Virus record (IMG/VR): IMGVR_UViG_2675903433_000005
Origin: a virus
Lineage: Duplodnaviria > Heunggongvirae > Uroviricota > Caudoviricetes
Strand: one strand, 5' to 3'
Length of the DNA stretch: 5,230 bases
Below, in pieces: positions 1 to 5,230 of the stretch. A program made the translations under genes and the position numbers. How positions within the stretch are numbered: the first letter of the stretch is position 1; each line of letters starts with the position of its first letter. The notes under the pieces are model-generated. The model saw nothing but the letters and a program-made list of their open reading frames with translations. It ran no database searches and had not been told where the DNA came from.

Positions 1-118
1 CCTGCTGACAGAGTCCGGGGTTGGCATCCAGCACCTTTTCGGTGACGCCCCGTGTCGTGCCGTAGTACCGGAAACAGAGCGAATCCACGGTGTCGCCTTC
101 CAGTGCCTTCACTTTCAT
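1..118 (-). CDS. X: Tail protein X (P2 gpX-like), N-terminal 39 codons only; gene continues beyond the window start
   Basis: Minus-strand ATG at 118-116 overlaps the L stop (TGATG). Translation MKVKALEGDTVDSLCFRYYGTTRGVTEKVLDANPGLCQQ resembles the start of P2 gpX as I recall it, and X follows L in P2 gene order. Too short for the ORF track. Confidence 0.6.
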   Translation of the reverse strand, partial: MKVKALEGDTVDSLCFRYYGTTRGVTEKVLDANPGLCQQ

Positions 119-612
119 CAGCACAGCTCCGCAAACATTCGCGGTCGTCCCAGAATGTCAGAGATGGCCCAGCTCACATCGCGCCACAAATCCGATGTCT
201 GTATATCCAGTGCGTCCGCCCGGCGGTCGCCCTTGTCCGTTGTGTCCGCATCGCGGTAACGCTCCAGAATCAGGGCGCGTGTGGCGGTATAAACAGCATT
301 GCGCCAGTGCCAGAGATTGACGCTTTCTCCGTTAATTACAGGGGCCGGAACATCGGCCAGCGTCTGATAGCCAGCCGCCTGTTGTTCCTGCTGCCATGCT
401 TCCAGCTCGCGGGTAACGTGTGCTATGGCCCCGGTGGCGGTATGCAGCAGGCGGGAGGTGGTCACGCGGCCCGGCAGTCGTACCGCCAGACGCAGCTCAC
501 GCAGCACAATATCCGGCCAGAATGCACCCGCTGAAATGCGAGTGTCGCCATCATCGGTATCGGTGATGTCGTCCTCTGCGGGGCCGGGGTTAGTTCTGGC
601 AACCATACTCAT
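118..612 (-). CDS. L: Head completion/stabilisation protein (P2 gpL-like)
   Basis: ORF-track ORF 118..621 resembles P2 gpL, including the motif LADVPA..GES...ERYR....KGD..AD..D....LWRD..WA. The track starts at GTG 621-619; I prefer ATG 612-610 because AGGAG lies 8 nt upstream on the minus strand (reverse complement of 620-624). Stop TGA at 120-118. Confidence 0.85.
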   Translation of the reverse strand: MSMVARTNPGPAEDDITDTDDGDTRISAGAFWPDIVLRELRLAVRLPGRVTTSRLLHTATGAIAHVTRELEAWQQEQQAAGYQTLADVPAPVINGESVNLWHWRNAVYTATRALILERYRDADTTDKGDRRADALDIQTSDLWRDVSWAISDILGRPRMFAELC

Positions 613-713
613 GGGGTTCACTCCTGAAAAAATCGGGCGGTGGGTGCGCGGTGTAAACGGTCACGGAGTCAAACCGGAACACCGCGCACGCCGCCCGCTG
701 ACGGGGTCAGTCG

Positions 714-1514
714 TTAACCGCGCTTTGCCTTCTGCGTCGCGGTGGTTTTTCGTGTTGCAGGCTTCCGCGTTGTCTTTTTATTTTTGCTGCTTTCGTCCTG
801 CGCCTGCTGTGCGCTGGCGTCTTCTGGTTCGGCTGCGGAATCGGCTTTTTTCAGGGCGCGGGAAAGGGTTGCAATCTCGCGTTTCACACCTGCGTTCGGG
901 TTCAGGTGCATCGCTTCGCGCAGCAGCTTCAGTGATGAGGCCATGTTGTCTGCATCGGTCAGGCCACGACGGGCAAAGGCACACGCCTTGCATAATTTGG
1001 CGCGCACTTCGTCCGGAATGTCCTGGTTGGCGACAATTTCCCAAAGTGTGTCCAGTGGTTCGATAAAGGCGGATAAATCCGCGTCGGCATCCGTCCCAGC
1101 CTGCGTCAGTACCGGGTTGCAGATTTCTTCGGTCAGTACCGTGGCAGCAGTACGGCCAAAGTTATCCGGCATGATGAGGTTGTGACGGACCACATATGCA
1201 CCAATACGCAGCGCCAGCGGAAGATCGCCGCAGTCAATCGCCCACACCATCAGCGTGGCAATTACTTCGTCCTGTTGCCCGCCGTCAGCCTCCAGCGTTC
1301 CCTCAATCCAGCCGGAAAAGTCCGGCAACAACTCTTTTTTGATGGCGGCTTTCGCGCTTCTGGCCTGTATGGCCTTTAGCCTGGCCTGTGCCAGACGCAG
1401 ACGATACAGCACTTCTTCATGCGCGGTACACGCGGCGTGGTCCACACCTTCATTCGCCCGGCCTGCGCGCTGTGCCATCACGTTCTGCCAGTGTTGTTGT
1501 GCAGGAGTAATCAT
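714..1514 (-). CDS. M: Terminase small/endonuclease subunit (P2 gpM-like), copy 1
   Basis: 266-aa ORF matching P2 gpM in my recollection (N-terminal PAQ.H motif, central LP.F..W..G.LE....QD....T.M.W..D.GD region, PDEVRAKL, basic C-terminal tail). GGAGAG RBS 7 nt upstream of ATG 1514-1512. Position after N and before L agrees with P2 synteny. Confidence 0.85.
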   Translation of the reverse strand: MITPAQQHWQNVMAQRAGRANEGVDHAACTAHEEVLYRLRLAQARLKAIQARSAKAAIKKELLPDFSGWIEGTLEADGGQQDEVIATLMVWAIDCGDLPLALRIGAYVVRHNLIMPDNFGRTAATVLTEEICNPVLTQAGTDADADLSAFIEPLDTLWEIVANQDIPDEVRAKLCKACAFARRGLTDADNMASSLKLLREAMHLNPNAGVKREIATLSRALKKADSAAEPEDASAQQAQDESSKNKKTTRKPATRKTTATQKAKRG

Positions 1515-1531
1515 TTTTTCTCTCCGTTACA

Positions 1532-1550
1532 GGCGGGCATGATGCCCGCC
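1532..1550 (-). promoter_or_regulatory. GC-rich stem-loop in the spacer between the N-derived stop and M copy 1 (GGCGGGC / 5-nt loop / GCCCGCC)
   Basis: Perfect 7-bp inverted repeat read directly; no U-tract follows on the transcribed strand, so not a canonical intrinsic terminator. Confidence 0.4.
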
Positions 1551-1559
1551 GTGAGTTGA

Positions 1560-1994
1560 TTAGCTGTCGGCGAACTTCAGGCCAGTGACCATCGCGCACT
1601 TGCCATAGTCTTCAACGACATAAGCGTCATTGATGGACTGGTAGGTGGCGATGCGGTTGTATTCCGGCTCGTCTTTCATCAGGCGACGCATTGAACCTTT
1701 CTGCCAGTAAATCGACAGGTTGTTGAACGAGGTGATAAGCATCGTTGCATCCGGGAAGAACGGCGCAAGGAACACGCCCAGCCCGCCAATGGTGCGCGAT
1801 GACAGGATGAGCTGCCCGGCAGTATGCAGCAGGCGGGAGGTGGTCACGCGGCCCGGCAGTCGTACCGCCAGACGCAGCTCGCGCAACACAATATCCGGCC
1901 AGAATGCACCTGCTGAAATGCGAGTGTCGCCATCATCGGTATCGGTGATGTCGTCCTCTGCGGGTCTGGGTTCAGTTCTGGCAACCATACTCAT
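1560..1994 (-). CDS. Chimeric ORF created by the duplication junction: N-terminal ~59 residues of gpL fused in frame to the C-terminal 85 residues of major capsid protein gpN; probably a by-product, function unknown
   Basis: ORF-track ORF 1560..2003: residues MNPMSMVART..RLLHTA match the L N-terminus (2 aa differences), and residues GQLILSSRTIGG..KFADS are identical to the N C-terminus. Same RBS/ATG context as L (ATG 1994-1992). Confidence 0.6.
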   Translation of the reverse strand: MSMVARTEPRPAEDDITDTDDGDTRISAGAFWPDIVLRELRLAVRLPGRVTTSRLLHTAGQLILSSRTIGGLGVFLAPFFPDATMLITSFNNLSIYWQKGSMRRLMKDEPEYNRIATYQSINDAYVVEDYGKCAMVTGLKFADS

Positions 1995-2096
1995 GGGGTT
2001 CACTCCTGAAAAAAATCGGGCGGTGGGTGCGCGGTGTAAACGGTCACGGAGTCAAACCGGAACACCGCGCACGCCGCCCGCTGACGGGGTCAGTCG

Positions 2097-2897
2097 TTAA
2101 CCGCGCTTCGCCTTCTGCGTCGCGGTGGTTTTTCGTGTTGCAGGCTTCCGCGTTGTCTTTTTACTTTTGCTGCTTTCGTCCTGCGCCTGCTGTGCGCTGG
2201 CGTCTTCTGGTGCGGCTGCGGAATCGGCTTTTTTCAGGGCGCGGGAAAGGGTTGCAATCTCGCGTTTCACACCTGCGTTCGGGTTCAGGTGCATTGCTTC
2301 GCGCAGCAGCTTCAGTGACAGGGCCATGCTGTCCGCATCACTCAGGCCACGGCGGGCAAAGGCGCACGCCTTGCATAATTTGGCGCGTACTTCGTCCGGC
2401 ATGTCCTGGTCGGTGACAATCTTCCGGAGGGTGTCCAGTGGTTCGATAAAGGCGGACAAATCCGCGTCGGCATCCGCCCCGGCCTGCGTCAGTACCGGGT
2501 TGCAGATTTCTTCGGTCAGCACTGTGGCAGCAGTACGGCCAAAGTTATCCGGCATAATGAGGTTATGACGGACCACATACGCACCAATACGCAACGCCAG
2601 CGGAAGATCGCCGCAGTCAATCGCCCACACCATCAGCGTGGCAATCACTTCATCCTGCTGCCCGCCGTCAGCCTCCAGCGTTCCCTCAATCCAGCCGGAA
2701 AAATCCGGCAACAACTCTTTTTTGATGGCGGCTTTCGCGCTTCTGGCCTGTACGCCCTTAAGCCGGGCCTGTGCCAGACGCAGACGATACAGCACCTCTT
2801 CATGCGCGGTACGCGCGGCGTGGTCCACGCCTTCATTCGCCCGGCCTGCGCGCTGTGCCATCACGTTCTGCCAGTGTTGCTGTGCAGGAGTAATCAT
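2097..2897 (-). CDS. M: Terminase small/endonuclease subunit (P2 gpM-like), copy 2 (adjacent to N, in the ancestral position)
   Basis: 266-aa ORF, 252/266 identical to copy 1 by manual comparison; GGAGAG RBS upstream of ATG 2897-2895; immediately downstream of N as in P2. Confidence 0.85.
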   Translation of the reverse strand: MITPAQQHWQNVMAQRAGRANEGVDHAARTAHEEVLYRLRLAQARLKGVQARSAKAAIKKELLPDFSGWIEGTLEADGGQQDEVIATLMVWAIDCGDLPLALRIGAYVVRHNLIMPDNFGRTAATVLTEEICNPVLTQAGADADADLSAFIEPLDTLRKIVTDQDMPDEVRAKLCKACAFARRGLSDADSMALSLKLLREAMHLNPNAGVKREIATLSRALKKADSAAAPEDASAQQAQDESSKSKKTTRKPATRKTTATQKAKRG

Positions 2898-2914
2898 TTG
2901 TTCTCTCCGTTACT

Positions 2915-2933
2915 GGCGGGCATGATGCCCGCC
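2915..2933 (-). promoter_or_regulatory. GC-rich stem-loop in the N-M intergenic spacer (duplicate of 1532-1550)
   Basis: Same GGCGGGC-atgat-GCCCGCC inverted repeat between the N stop (2945-2943) and the M start (2897); conserved in both copies although the flanking spacer has 2 substitutions. Confidence 0.4.
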
Positions 2934-2942
2934 GTGAGTTGA

Positions 2943-3995
2943 TTAGCTGTCGGCGAACTTCAGGCCAGTGACCATCGCGCACTTGCCATAGTCTTCAACG
3001 ACATAAGCGTCATTGATGGACTGGTAGGTGGCGATGCGGTTGTATTCCGGCTCGTCTTTCATCAGGCGACGCATTGAACCTTTCTGCCAGTAAATCGACA
3101 GGTTGTTGAACGAGGTGATCAGCATCGTTGCATCCGGGAAGAACGGCGCAAGGAACACGCCCAGCCCGCCAATGGTGCGCGATGACAGGATGAGCTGCCC
3201 GGCGAGTAATTCCGCATTGGGATTCTGGCCGCTGATGCTGTTCAGCACGGGCAGACGCAGCGAGTTAAACAGGTTGCGCCCCATAATCACCACGAGGTCG
3301 TCAGCTTCCTTGTGCCATTCATCCAGCAGGGATGAACGCGCGTCCTGTACCAGTGCATCAGCGTTCGCATACTTACCCGCGTGCGCCACGGTGTTGTCCA
3401 TGTTGCGGGAGGTCAGCGTCACGTCATTCATAACGCGTTCGCTGGCGTCGGTTCTGATGTGCTCCAGCCATCCCACGTTAACGTCCTGAAGCAGCTTGTT
3501 GGTGCTGAAGTTGGACTCATCCGCGTGAGACGTGCCGTTGAAACCGATCATGATGCGGTCAAGCGCCACCTGTCGGGCAATCTGTGCGCTGATGCGGGAC
3601 TGAAAATCAGGGTGTGCCGCCCAGGCATCAAGCTGCGGATATGAAATAAACGTGTCGTAGTTCACCTGTTCGCACTGGTATTTGCGGTTTTTCAGATCAA
3701 CCACGTTATTCGGGTTACGGCGTTTTGTGCCGTCATAACTGGTATTCGTGCGCGCAATCGGCCCGGTGGTATCCAGGAGGATTTTTTCGCCTTTCTGGTC
3801 GGTCACGCCGATCACGTTAATTCTTTTTGTAAATTCGGTGCTTTCCTTTGAGGCGTTTTCAAAACGCTGCTGTACCGAGGGTTCCACGGTAAATCGCGAT
3901 ACCAGTGCGGAAACCGGGATATTGTTAAGCGACGCCTGCTGCGCCATATAGCAACCCAGCTTGTTGCGGGTAATATCTGACATCACCAGATTCAT
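2943..3995 (-). CDS. N: Major capsid protein (P2 gpN-like)
   Basis: 350-aa ORF with recognisable similarity to P2 gpN from memory (FTVEPSV.Q, GEKI, NKY.C.Q.N.D, GFNG, LQDV.VGWL, DLVVI.GR, YFPAD.MLIT, ENLSIY, YVVEDY). AAGGAG lies 10 nt upstream of ATG 3995-3993. Confidence 0.9.
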   Translation of the reverse strand: MNLVMSDITRNKLGCYMAQQASLNNIPVSALVSRFTVEPSVQQRFENASKESTEFTKRINVIGVTDQKGEKILLDTTGPIARTNTSYDGTKRRNPNNVVDLKNRKYQCEQVNYDTFISYPQLDAWAAHPDFQSRISAQIARQVALDRIMIGFNGTSHADESNFSTNKLLQDVNVGWLEHIRTDASERVMNDVTLTSRNMDNTVAHAGKYANADALVQDARSSLLDEWHKEADDLVVIMGRNLFNSLRLPVLNSISGQNPNAELLAGQLILSSRTIGGLGVFLAPFFPDATMLITSFNNLSIYWQKGSMRRLMKDEPEYNRIATYQSINDAYVVEDYGKCAMVTGLKFADS

Positions 3996-4018
3996 AAAAA
4001 ATTTGCTCCTTTGTCTTA

Positions 4019-4855
4019 TCAGAAGTCAGCCAGCTGGTCGGAGGCTGCGCCCGTTGCGGTGAAGCGGTTCTGCGGATCGCCGTCCTGCGTGCGCAGTTTT
4101 TCCTTCAGTGCTGCCAGCTCTGTGGTCAGTGACGTAATTTTCTGGCGGTCCTGCTGATGGCGGGTTTCCAGCACATTAAAACGGTCGATAATGTCGGCCT
4201 GTGACGTTGCGACGCCTTCCACCGCTTCCTGAATACGGGAAAAACTGGCGTCATCCGCTTTGCGGCCACGGCCAATAATCCCCATTACGCGGTTAAACCA
4301 CTGGGTGCCTTCTTCCTGGCGTTGTTCTGCCATTTCGATGATTTCAGACTCGATGGCTTCGGAGATAAGCGGCGCTTCACCCTGGACACTGTTGAACGTC
4401 ATTACCGCCTGACGTTGCTGTGCCGTGAATTTCAGGCGCTCAGTGCCCAGGCTCGCCGGGGTGTCGGTCATCGCCAGCCCGACCAGATAGGCGCGCCCGT
4501 TAACGGAGAACTGCGGGTGCAGTTCGATACTGGAATAGATTTTCTTGCCGTCAGCGACAAGCTGCTTCATGCGCTCGGTCGGTTCGATTTCTGCATACAG
4601 CGCAGTACGTCCGGCCAGCGGGCCTTCCGTAATATCTTCCGTACTCAGCGCGGTGACATCGCCCATTGCGGAAAATTCGCTTGACGGGCATGGCGAGAGA
4701 TAGTGCTCAACGTTCACGCGGGCAGCGTAAACATCCGGGTTGAAGTTCTCGGCGGCTTCACGCAGATGTACCGGGCTGATTTCGCGGCCATCAACAGTTG
4801 ATCCGGAGACAGCCACGCGAAACTTTTTGCGGGATGTCTTTTTTTCATTAGCCAT
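4019..4855 (-). CDS. O: Capsid scaffolding protein / prohead protease (P2 gpO-like)
   Basis: ORF-track ORF 4019..4888; I place the start at the internal ATG 4855-4853 (MANEKKTSRKKFRVAVSGSTVDGR...). This aligns with the P2 gpO N-terminus (MAKKVSKFFRIGVEGDTCDGR...) and has a GAGGGG RBS 8 nt upstream. Also shares SIEL.P.F...G..YLVGLA.TD.PASLGTE with gpO. Confidence 0.85.
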   Translation of the reverse strand: MANEKKTSRKKFRVAVSGSTVDGREISPVHLREAAENFNPDVYAARVNVEHYLSPCPSSEFSAMGDVTALSTEDITEGPLAGRTALYAEIEPTERMKQLVADGKKIYSSIELHPQFSVNGRAYLVGLAMTDTPASLGTERLKFTAQQRQAVMTFNSVQGEAPLISEAIESEIIEMAEQRQEEGTQWFNRVMGIIGRGRKADDASFSRIQEAVEGVATSQADIIDRFNVLETRHQQDRQKITSLTTELAALKEKLRTQDGDPQNRFTATGAASDQLADF

Positions 4856-5009
4856 AGTTTTTGCCCCTCTGACTGGTTCTTCAGTCATGATGGCAAAGCG
4901 TAACAGGCTGATACAAAGGGCTTTTGTTGTAAGAAAACAGTCAGAACAGGGGGTTAAGGAGAACGGTTTCGCGCGCGGGTAATCTTCCTGTAATTACTCA
5001 GGGGGAGCA
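4856..5009. promoter_or_regulatory. Divergent intergenic control region between O (leftward) and P (rightward); expected to hold the two late promoters
   Basis: 154-bp non-coding gap between divergently oriented start codons, matching the P2 P<->O arrangement. Contains imperfect dyads ACAAAgggcTTTTGT (4913-4927) and TGTTGTaagAAAACA (4925-4939). No promoter was verified. Confidence 0.5.
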
Positions 5010-5230
5010 ATGATTCAGGACGCTTTTGTGCGCCAGCGTGCGCGGCAACTTTACTGGCAGGGTTATCCGCCCGCAGAAATATCACGTCTGATGGGAATAA
5101 ACCCGAACACGATTTATGCGTGGAAAAAACGCGACCAGTGGGATGAAACGCCACCCGTGCAGCGTGTCACGCAGTCCATCGATGCGCGCCTCATCCAGCT
5201 CACTGAAAAACAGAATAAAACAGGTGGTGA
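5010..5230 (+). CDS. P: Terminase ATPase (large) subunit (P2 gpP-like), N-terminal part; continues beyond the window end
   Basis: ATG at 5010 preceded by GGGGGAG (5001-5007). Translation MIQDAFVRQRARQLYWQGYPPAEISRLMGINPNTIYAWKKRDQWDE... has an HTH-like N-terminus typical of P2-family terminase ATPase subunits, and the gene is divergent from O as in P2. Confidence 0.7.
   Translation, partial: MIQDAFVRQRARQLYWQGYPPAEISRLMGINPNTIYAWKKRDQWDETPPVQRVTQSIDARLIQLTEKQNKTGG

What the first reader, a model, noticed from the sequence alone, without database searches (positions are those of the whole stretch)
2400..2426. Short hyper-divergent patch in gpM (residues ~158-166) that separates the two terminase small-subunit alleles
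Nine of the 14 amino-acid differences between the M copies fall in residues 141-193, and five of them in residues 158-166 (LWEIVANQDI versus LRKIVTDQDM). The corresponding DNA (1017-1043 versus 2400-2426) has roughly 9 substitutions in about 30 bp, far above the background of a few percent. Such a patch suggests either import of a segment from a more distant allele or diversifying change in one surface region. Terminase small subunits determine packaging specificity, so two alleles could differ in DNA or partner recognition; this functional link is speculative.
Basis: partly seen in the sequence, partly recalled or inferred. Interest (0 to 1): 0.45.

Follow-up and report, generated by a model that had tools for sequence, protein, structure and literature searches.

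The report
Common two-state polymorphism in gpM terminase
The divergent patch between the two small-terminase (gpM) copies is real, but it is a common two-state polymorphism of P88/P2-like phages that lies at variable positions of the protein, and both states are here only because the contig joins two different phage lineages.

Summary
The two gpM copies differ at 14 residues, 9 of them in 141-193 and 5 in 158-166. The DNA has 6 substitutions in 1017-1043 and 8 in 1017-1047, not about 9. Clustering is only modestly significant (p about 0.02-0.05).

The patch did not arise after a duplication. The window is a whole 5,230-bp contig of an E. coli draft genome. Its left part is 99.9% identical to one natural P88-like prophage lineage and its right part 99.8% identical to another. 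They are joined out of register at a 4-nt microhomology (GGCA, 1818-1821), and this junction was found in no other public sequence searched.

Among 98 distinct gpM alleles, six SNPs within 20 bp (three of them synonymous) form two haplotypes, R158/T162/D163 and W158/A162/N163. They are almost perfectly linked, and linkage disappears just outside the block. pN/pS is below 1. Residues 158 and 163 co-vary across the family, and the same dimorphism occurs in a Salmonella lineage. The positions lie at a predicted helix end and loop, just before the family's most conserved motif (DMPD).

The haplotype is not linked to variants in the large terminase, the portal gene or the DNA beyond it. This is ordinary standing variation; a role in packaging specificity is not supported.

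The parts
2097..2897 (-). gpM copy A (terminase small subunit, 266 aa). Patch state is R158 K159 T162 D163 M166.
   Evidence: ORF. PF05944 at E = 3e-37. The exact protein is seen on >=1000 public contigs. The DNA is identical to the E. coli TK3046 prophage gpM.
714..1514 (-). gpM copy B (266 aa). Patch state is W158 E159 A162 N163 I166.
   Evidence: ORF. PF05944 at E = 7e-37. The exact protein is on 158 public contigs. It is 100% identical to loci L081-L087.
2400..2430 (-). The patch in copy A (codons 156-166). It comprises the 20-bp linked block 2411-2430, the K159 first base at 2423 and the M166 codon at 2400-2402.
1017..1047 (-). The patch in copy B (codons 156-166). It comprises the 20-bp linked block 1028-1047 and the I166 codon at 1017-1019.
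2319..2341 (-). Second divergent cluster in copy A (codons 186-193: S186, S190, L193). The counterpart in copy B is 936-958 (T186, N190, S193).
   Evidence: 7 substitutions in 23 bp. Residue 193 is in partial linkage with the patch (r2 about 0.5), whereas 186 and 190 are not.
436..1820 (.). Repeat unit 1 (lineage B): 5' 186 nt of L, gpM copy B, and 3' 261 nt of N.
   Evidence: Direct repeat with period 1383 and a 1-bp indel at 626. Window 1-1820 has one mismatch to L081/82/84/85, and 1-1817 is 99.9% identical to O26-type prophages.
1818..3203 (.). Repeat unit 2 (lineage A): 5' 186 nt of L, gpM copy A, and 3' 261 nt of the full N gene.
   Evidence: Window 1822-5230 is 99.8% identical to the single-copy prophage of E. 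coli TK3046.
1818..1821 (.). Out-of-register junction. GGCA is shared by lineage-B N (..CCCGGCAAGTAA) and lineage-A L (..GGTGGCAGTATG).
   Evidence: The junction is absent from 5,426 complete E. coli genomes, GTDB representative genomes, IMG/VR and JGI metagenomes.
1560..1994 (-). In-frame hybrid ORF (144 aa from the ATG; 147 aa from the GTG at 2003): gpL residues 1-59 fused to the last 85 residues of capsid protein gpN.
   Evidence: Pfam hits to Phage_GPL and Phage_cap_P2. It is a singleton among about 15 billion proteins, known only from this contig (WP_053904695.1).
118..612 (-). gpL head completion protein, lineage B, full length.
   Evidence: PF05926 at E = 3e-47. Gene call. The exact protein is on >=1000 contigs.
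2943..3995 (-). gpN major capsid protein, lineage A, full length.
   Evidence: PF05125 at E = 9e-119
4019..4888 (-). gpO capsid scaffold/protease. The public gene call starts at 4855.
   Evidence: PF05929 at E = 2e-90
5010..5230 (+). 5' end of gpP (terminase large subunit), cut by the contig end.
   Evidence: Gene call with a Terminase_5/HTH hit. The annotated homologue in TK3046 is 'terminase large subunit domain-containing protein'.

Best explanation
The patch is a pre-existing two-state polymorphism of the gpM small terminase subunit in P88/P2-like phages. It is not divergence that arose between duplicated genes.

Its core is a 20-bp block (codons 156-163) carrying six almost completely linked SNPs. 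These give two haplotypes, R158/T162/D163 and W158/A162/N163. K159 (copy A, linked to A141) and I166 (copy B) are extra, rarer lineage variants.

The block lies at the C-terminal end of predicted helix 148-160 and the following loop of a predicted all-helical, TPR-like protein. These positions are variable across the whole family and sit immediately before its most conserved motif (D165-M-P-D168..VRAKLxK). I infer that residues 158 and 163 (with 162, and partly 193) are structurally coupled alternatives, R with D or W with N, that are functionally near-equivalent. The block probably moves between lineages by short-patch recombination.

The window shows both states because it joins two natural phage lineages out of register at a GGCA microhomology. 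Lineage A contributes P', O, N, M and L'. Lineage B contributes N', M, L and X'. If the join is real, a plausible route is a microhomology-mediated deletion within a tandem double lysogen (B then A), or illegitimate recombination between co-replicating phages.

Shown: the haplotype structure, the family variability, the covariation, the lineage origin of each half and the absence of linkage to gpP, gpQ and the DNA beyond Q. Inferred: the structural coupling, the near-neutrality and the route that made the junction.
For: - Both copies are exact, common natural alleles, on >=1000 and 158 contigs. Each half of the window matches a different single-copy prophage lineage at 99.8-99.9%.
- In 98 distinct alleles from 127 IMG/VR loci, the two block sequences ACCCTCCGGGAGATTGTCACCGAC and ACACTTTGGGAAATTGTCGCCAAC dominate. 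M nt 468, 471, 472, 477, 484 and 487 are linked at r2 0.96-1.0, while nt 465 and 495 assort freely.
- pN/pS is 0.45 for the pair and 0.24 in the population. Synonymous diversity is raised in the patch (piS 0.26 against 0.10 in codons 1-140).
- Among 112 homologues, residues 158 and 163 pair as W-N 39, R-D 18, A-D 39, W-D 1 and R-N 0.
- The same RK..TD / WE..TN dimorphism occurs in a Salmonella lineage that is only about 72% identical in DNA. Closer relatives at 76-87% identity are all W..N.
- Across 143 family representatives, columns 155-159 and 162-164 have 2.5-3.75 bits of entropy. D165 is 99% conserved, M166 90% and D168 96%.
- The AlphaFold2 model has pLDDT above 90 over most of residues 31-225. 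It predicts a helix at 148-160 and a loop at 161-167.
- The haplotype has r2 <= 0.12 with every common variant in O, P, Q and about 1.1 kb beyond Q, and <= 0.29 within N.
Against: - Near-complete linkage of six sites within 20 bp in a freely recombining background, skip-linkage to residue 193 (r2 about 0.5) across unlinked 186 and 190, and recurrence in a distant lineage could all reflect selection keeping two functional types. They do not require neutrality.
- No donor lineage carrying an identical block in a divergent background was found, so import is not demonstrated.
- The population sample was chosen by similarity to the two copies, so haplotype frequencies are biased.
- I166 in copy B replaces a residue that is M in 90% of the family, and it might have an effect.
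- Whether the junction is real is unresolved.
Confidence: 0.75

Rival explanations
1. The two-state block is a functional specificity or escape determinant held by balancing selection. It would be a surface patch of the TPR-like gpM next to the invariant DMPD motif that contacts a partner: gpP, cos DNA, or a hijacking satellite or host defence protein that binds the small terminase. A prophage with both alleles would then have broadened or buffered recognition.
For: - There is a sharp 20-bp peak of linkage and diversity in a recombining background.
- Residue 193 is in skip-linkage with the patch.
- The same dimorphism segregates in a Salmonella lineage with 72% DNA identity.
- Residues 158 and 163 co-vary strongly across the family.
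- The patch adjoins the most conserved motif of the family.
Against: - pN/pS is below 1 and there are only two states.
- There is no linkage to any common variant in gpP, gpQ or the DNA beyond Q (r2 <= 0.12).
- Both haplotypes occur in otherwise near-identical phages of the same host species.
- Rare intermediates (RETN, READ) exist.
- The cos site itself was not located. A remembered P2 cos 19-mer gave no match.
Confidence: 0.12
2. The apparent pair of alleles in one prophage is an assembly artefact. The isolate would carry two separate P88-like prophages (A and B), and the 5.2-kb contig wrongly links an A-specific piece to a B-specific piece. The patch is then simply a difference between two co-resident prophages.
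For: - The window is a whole short contig of a draft assembly, and both its ends lie inside phage genes.
- The junction and the hybrid protein are unique in all public data searched.
- The two halves belong to different natural lineages.
- About one in ten prophage-positive E. coli genomes has more than one such prophage, with up to 4 places per genome.
- A full-length lineage-A gpL carries accession CTZ98878.1, in the same series as this contig's CTZ98307 and CTZ98310.
- On the N side, the junction falls exactly at the end of an 83-nt stretch identical in A and B.
Against: - By general knowledge of de Bruijn graph assemblers and gap closers, none should create a join that shares only 4 nt.
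- The lineage-A L sequence next to the junction differs from lineage B (24 of 439 nt, including sites 424-439), so there is no repeat boundary there.
- The contig ends do not abut long A/B-identical stretches either.
- The contig has no N run, and all flanking genes are intact and in frame.
- It is not established that CTZ98878.1 comes from the same assembly.
Confidence: 0.35
3. The patch arose by accelerated or diversifying change after an in-situ tandem duplication freed one gpM copy from constraint.
For: There are two tandem copies with clustered amino-acid changes.
Against: - Neither copy has a private amino-acid change. Each is an exact allele common in single-copy phages.
- The whole left half, including the non-duplicated L 3' part, belongs to another lineage.
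- Every patch state is a standing population variant.
- pN/pS is below 1.
Confidence: 0.02

Closest known systems
Terminase small subunit gpM of P2-like phages (Pfam PF05944 Phage_term_smal), specifically the P88-like group (Xuanwuvirus, Peduoviridae): Escherichia phages P88, 520873, 503458 and Citrobacter phage Shae_phiSM
   Same: - Both copies match the full Pfam model (1-130 of 130, E about 1e-37).
- The gene order P | O N M L X is kept.
- The window is 95-98% identical in DNA to these phages and to prophages in more than 1,000 E. coli genomes.
- Both protein sequences already exist in public databases.
   Different: All of those phages and prophages have one M gene; the matches span 3,847 bp rather than 5,230 bp. 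Only this contig has M twice, with an L'-N' fusion ORF between the copies.
Mosaic short-patch recombination among temperate phage genomes (general phenomenon; own knowledge)
   Same: A sharply bounded 20-bp block holds six linked substitutions, three of them synonymous, and flanking sites assort freely. Linkage across the head-gene cluster decays within a few hundred bp.
   Different: The block is unusually short. Its amino-acid states recur in a lineage only 72% identical. No donor carrying the identical block was found.
Packaging-specificity determinants of lambda-like small terminases (gpNu1 with cosB in lambda, 21 and N15; PMC4669245 seen by title and abstract only; details from own knowledge)
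   Different: In the lambda-like phages, specificity lies in an N-terminal DNA-binding domain that co-varies with cosB. Here the patch is in the C-terminal half of a predicted TPR-like protein, and it shows no linkage to the DNA beyond Q or to gpP. gpM has no sequence relative among solved structures.

Membership tests
P2-type terminase small subunit gpM (PF05944) | Match to the Pfam model above the gathering score | tested here: met
   127.8 and 126.7 bits against a cut-off of 29.4, over the full model length
P2-type terminase small subunit gpM (PF05944) | Position between capsid gene N and head-completion gene L in the late operon | tested here: met
   Copy A follows N. Copy B precedes L. 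Between the copies lies an L'-N' fusion ORF.
P2-type terminase small subunit gpM (PF05944) | Family-wide conserved motif D165-M166-P167-D168 .. V170 R171 A172 K173 L174 | tested here: met
   Present in both copies. Copy B has I at 166, where 90% of 143 representatives have M.
P2-type terminase small subunit gpM (PF05944) | Terminase activity together with gpP (cos cleavage, packaging) | not testable with these tools
   This needs genetics or biochemistry.
Patch under diversifying (positive) selection | Excess of non-synonymous over synonymous change (dN/dS > 1) and many alternative states | tested here: not met
   pN/pS is 0.45 (pair) and 0.24 (population) for codons 156-166. Two haplotypes make up 87 of 98 alleles.
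Short-patch mosaic import (gene conversion from a divergent allele) | Linked synonymous and non-synonymous differences in a block with sharp boundaries | tested here: met
   Six SNPs in 20 bp have r2 of 0.96-1.0. Neighbouring sites nt 465 and 495 are unlinked.
Short-patch mosaic import (gene conversion from a divergent allele) | An identifiable donor lineage carrying the same block in a divergent background | tested here: inconclusive
   Salmonella locus L131 shares 18 of 18 nt over codons 158-163 with copy A but differs at the synonymous sites of codons 156-157. No exact donor was found for either block.
Co-adapted specificity module (small terminase allele matched to a gpP or cos variant) | Linkage between the patch haplotype and variants in the partner gene or site | tested here: not met
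   r2 <= 0.12 across P, Q and about 1.1 kb beyond Q in 59 distinct loci. r2 <= 0.11 across the P 5' end in 105 loci. The cos site itself was not mapped.
In-situ tandem gene duplication followed by divergence | The two copies share a most recent common ancestor with each other rather than with alleles elsewhere | tested here: not met
   Unit B has 1 mismatch in 1,385 bp to L081-L086. The right part (1822-5230), which contains unit A, has 6 mismatches in 3,409 bp to TK3046. The two units differ from each other at more than 50 sites.

The most novel reading that the evidence does not exclude
The linked states W158/A162/N163(+S193) and R158/T162/D163(+L193) are a long-lived balanced polymorphism. 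It would lie on an interaction surface of a TPR-like small terminase, next to the invariant DMPD motif, and be kept across E. coli and Salmonella phage lineages by frequency-dependent pressure, for example from a satellite or defence protein that binds the small terminase. The hybrid prophage, if real, would be a natural carrier of both types.
Probability: 0.07. Interest if true: 0.6.

Novelty: already known. Interest (0 to 1): 0.15.

Why it matters
It matters little as it stands. Both gpM sequences are already in public databases, and the patch is ordinary allelic variation at variable positions of a known phage protein.

Three points may be useful:
- The result warns against reading divergence between apparent paralogues as post-duplication evolution when the copies come from different lineages, possibly through an assembly join.
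- It identifies a coupled residue set (158/162/163, partly 193) that could guide mutagenesis of gpM, a small terminase with no solved structure.
- If the out-of-register junction is real, it is a rare natural example of a P2-like prophage carrying two small-terminase alleles and a gpL-gpN fusion ORF.

Tried and rejected
- Post-duplication divergence was rejected. Each copy is an exact common allele, and each half of the window matches a different lineage.
- Positive selection was rejected because pN/pS is below 1.
- The junction was sought in complete E. coli genomes, GTDB representative genomes, IMG/VR and JGI metagenomes, with no hit. None of 130 related viral loci has a second M copy.
- The hybrid protein starting at the GTG is not on record. 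The form starting at the ATG led to the source contig.
- I tested whether the contig ends and the junction coincide with boundaries of A/B-identical repeats, as an assembly-graph artefact would predict. This held only on the N side of the junction, so it is inconclusive.
- I tried to show that a full-length lineage-A gpL (CTZ98878.1) sits in the same assembly. The look-up listed only other samples, so this is unresolved.
- I looked for a donor of either block in lineages 70-87% identical. None was exact.
- I tried to locate cos with a remembered P2 19-mer and found no match. The linkage scan therefore covers 'DNA beyond Q', not a mapped cos site.
- There is no Rfam family in the window and no excess of promoter-like or terminator-like sites.
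- Literature searches found no domain mapping of gpM and no paper on this assembly.

Full report
**What the window is**

The window is the head-gene cluster of a P2-like temperate phage, read on the minus strand:

| Feature | Coordinates | Strand |
|---|---|---|
| gpP 5' end | 5010-5230 | + |
| gpO | 4019-4888 | - |
| gpN | 2943-3995 | - |
| gpM copy A | 2097-2897 | - |
| ORF fusing the first ~59 residues of gpL to the last ~85 of gpN | 1560-1994 | - |
| gpM copy B | 714-1514 | - |
| gpL | 118-612 | - |
| start of gpX | 1-118 | - |

- A direct repeat with period 1383 (436-1820 and 1818-3203, with one 1-bp indel) produces the second M copy.
- The DNA is 95-98% identical to the P88-like phages P88, 520873, 503458 and Shae_phiSM (P88 group, Xuanwuvirus) and to prophages in more than 1,000 of 5,426 complete E. 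coli genomes. Every one of those matches spans 3,847 bp, which is a single-copy arrangement.

**Checking the observation**

- The two M genes differ at 43 of 801 nt and at 14 residues.
- The nucleotide count was overstated. There are 6 substitutions in 1017-1043, and 8 in 1017-1047 once two adjacent synonymous changes are included.
- A permutation scan gives p = 0.045 for a 27-bp window, 0.016 for 31 bp and 0.001 for the wider 136-bp region. The clustering is real but modest.
- A second cluster of equal density lies at residues 186-193 (936-958 / 2319-2341).

**Where the two copies come from**

- The window is the whole of contig CYGC01000097.1 (5,230 bp) of the E. coli draft assembly GCA_001283185.1.
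- Positions 1-1820 have a single mismatch to several IMG/VR prophages (L081/82/84/85), and 1-1817 is 99.9% identical to O26-type prophages.
- Positions 1822-5230 are 99.8% identical (6 mismatches) to the ordinary single-copy prophage of strain TK3046.
- The exact copy-A protein is on at least 1,000 public contigs and the exact copy-B protein on 158.
- The two copies are therefore alleles from two natural lineages. They are not paralogues that diverged in place.
- The lineages meet at GGCA (1818-1821). This 4-mer is shared by lineage-B N (..CCCGGCAAGTAA) and a common L allele (..GGTGGCAGTATG).
- This junction, and the fusion protein it creates, occur nowhere else in the collections searched.

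**Is the junction real?**

I could not settle this.

Evidence for an artefact:
- The contig is short and both its ends lie inside phage genes.
- The junction is unique.
- Many E. coli genomes carry several such prophages.
- A full-length lineage-A gpL has an accession in the same series as this contig's proteins.

Evidence for a real junction:
- By general knowledge of assemblers, none should join sequences on a 4-nt overlap.
- Neither the L side of the junction nor the contig ends coincide with stretches identical between A and B.

I put roughly 60-65% on a real junction. If it is real, a microhomology-mediated deletion inside a tandem B-A double lysogen would give exactly this structure. That route is an inference.

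**What the patch is in the population**

- I collected 130 related loci from IMG/VR. They gave 98 distinct 801-nt M alleles.
- Amino-acid polymorphism is almost absent from residues 1-140. It is concentrated in 141-166, 186-193 and 229-238.
- In the patch, two 24-nt block sequences dominate: ACCCTCCGGGAGATTGTCACCGAC (TLREIVTD; 50 alleles, plus 9 with K159) and ACACTTTGGGAAATTGTCGCCAAC (TLWEIVAN; 28 alleles).
- Six SNPs within 20 bp (M nt 468, 471, 472, 477, 484, 487) are linked at r2 0.96-1.0. Three are synonymous and three give R/W158, T/A162 and D/N163. Sites at nt 465 and 495 assort freely.
- K159 in copy A is a minor variant on the R background, linked to A141. I166 in copy B is a minor variant seen in 8 loci.
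- Residue 193 (L/S) keeps r2 of about 0.5 with the patch, although 186 and 190 between them are unlinked.

**Selection and origin**

- pN/pS in codons 156-166 is 0.45 for the pair and 0.24 in the population. Synonymous diversity there (0.26) is well above that of codons 1-140 (0.10).
- This does not fit diversifying selection. It fits either an old allele pair or a short imported tract.
- Among 112 homologues, residues 158 and 163 pair as W-N 39, R-D 18, A-D 39, W-D 1 and R-N 0.
- A Salmonella lineage only about 72% identical in DNA carries the same dimorphism: RKIVTD in L131 and WEIVTN in L132. L131 matches copy A at 18 of 18 nt over codons 158-163 but differs at the synonymous sites of codons 156-157.
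- Relatives at 76-87% identity all carry W..N.
- No exact donor of either block was found.

**Structure and family context**

- gpM has no sequence relative among solved structures.
- An AlphaFold2 model built from a 41-sequence alignment is confident: mean pLDDT 83, and above 90 over most of residues 31-225. It is all-helical, with the tail from residue 230 disordered.
- The patch spans the end of helix 148-160 and the loop 161-167. The second cluster spans the loop 182-187 and the start of helix 188-204.
- In 143 family representatives clustered at 50% identity or less, columns 155-159 and 162-164 are among the most variable (2.5-3.75 bits). They immediately precede the most conserved stretch of the family: D165 99%, M166 90%, D168 96%, then VRAKLxK.
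- The patch therefore sits at variable positions of this family.

**Test of the specificity idea**

- I measured linkage between the haplotype and every common variant upstream of M.
- In 105 distinct loci with 3-kb flanks, r2 is at most 0.11 over the gpP 5' end and O, and at most 0.29 within N.
- In 59 distinct loci reaching 6 kb upstream, r2 is at most 0.12 across all of gpP, gpQ and about 1.1 kb beyond Q, where cos lies in P2 by synteny (own knowledge).
- I could not map cos itself.
- There is thus no sign that the two gpM states travel with matched partner alleles.

**Conclusion**

- The patch is ordinary standing variation: a two-state, internally coupled mini-block at a helix end and loop of gpM.
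- Both states appear here because two phage lineages are joined in one contig.
- The most likely mechanism is two structurally compensated, functionally near-equivalent solutions (R with D, W with N), shuffled by short-patch recombination.
- A balanced functional polymorphism remains possible at low probability.
- The feature of the window that deserves follow-up is the out-of-register junction. The isolate's reads would settle whether it is real.

Noticed in passing
window 436-3203; junction at 1818-1821; hybrid ORF 1560-1994 (-): The 1.38-kb 'tandem duplication' is a join of two different P88-like lineages at a GGCA microhomology. It creates an in-frame gpL(1-59)-gpN(C-terminal 85) fusion ORF that is a singleton among about 15 billion proteins. 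The window is an entire 5,230-bp draft contig (CYGC01000097.1, GCA_001283185.1). Whether the join is real or an assembly artefact is unresolved.
   Followed up: partly
[not shown]
   Followed up: partly
protein P0001 (313 aa, one NCBI contig); loci L107 and L113; P0006: Other odd gpM forms exist in public data. P0001 has an internal 47-residue tandem duplication (VQARSAK..AIDC twice). L107, L113 and P0006 have lost the stop codon and read through to 313 aa.
   Followed up: no
window 1533-1551 and 2916-2934: A perfect GC-rich hairpin (GGCGGGCAT-g-ATGCCCGCC) lies in the N-M intergenic spacer just upstream of the M ribosome-binding site, in both copies. There is no T-run, and its function was not examined.
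   Followed up: no
gpM residues 158/162/163 versus 193 (window 2319-2321 / 936-938): Residue 193 (L/S) stays associated with the patch haplotype (r2 about 0.5) although the polymorphic residues 186 and 190 between them are unlinked. This may indicate epistasis or contact between helix 148-160 and helix 188-204.
   Followed up: partly
protein P0284 (full-length gpL of the TK3046/A lineage): Its first listed accession is CTZ98878.1, in the same ENA series as this contig's CTZ98307 and CTZ98310. Its first 58 residues equal the L' part of the hybrid ORF. If it comes from the same assembly, the isolate also holds an intact lineage-A L gene, which would favour the mis-assembly reading.
   Followed up: partly
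window 1017-1019 (copy B codon 166): Copy B has I166 where 90% of family representatives, and most P88-like alleles, have M, inside the conserved DMPD motif. It is a minor lineage variant seen in 8 of 130 loci.
   Followed up: no
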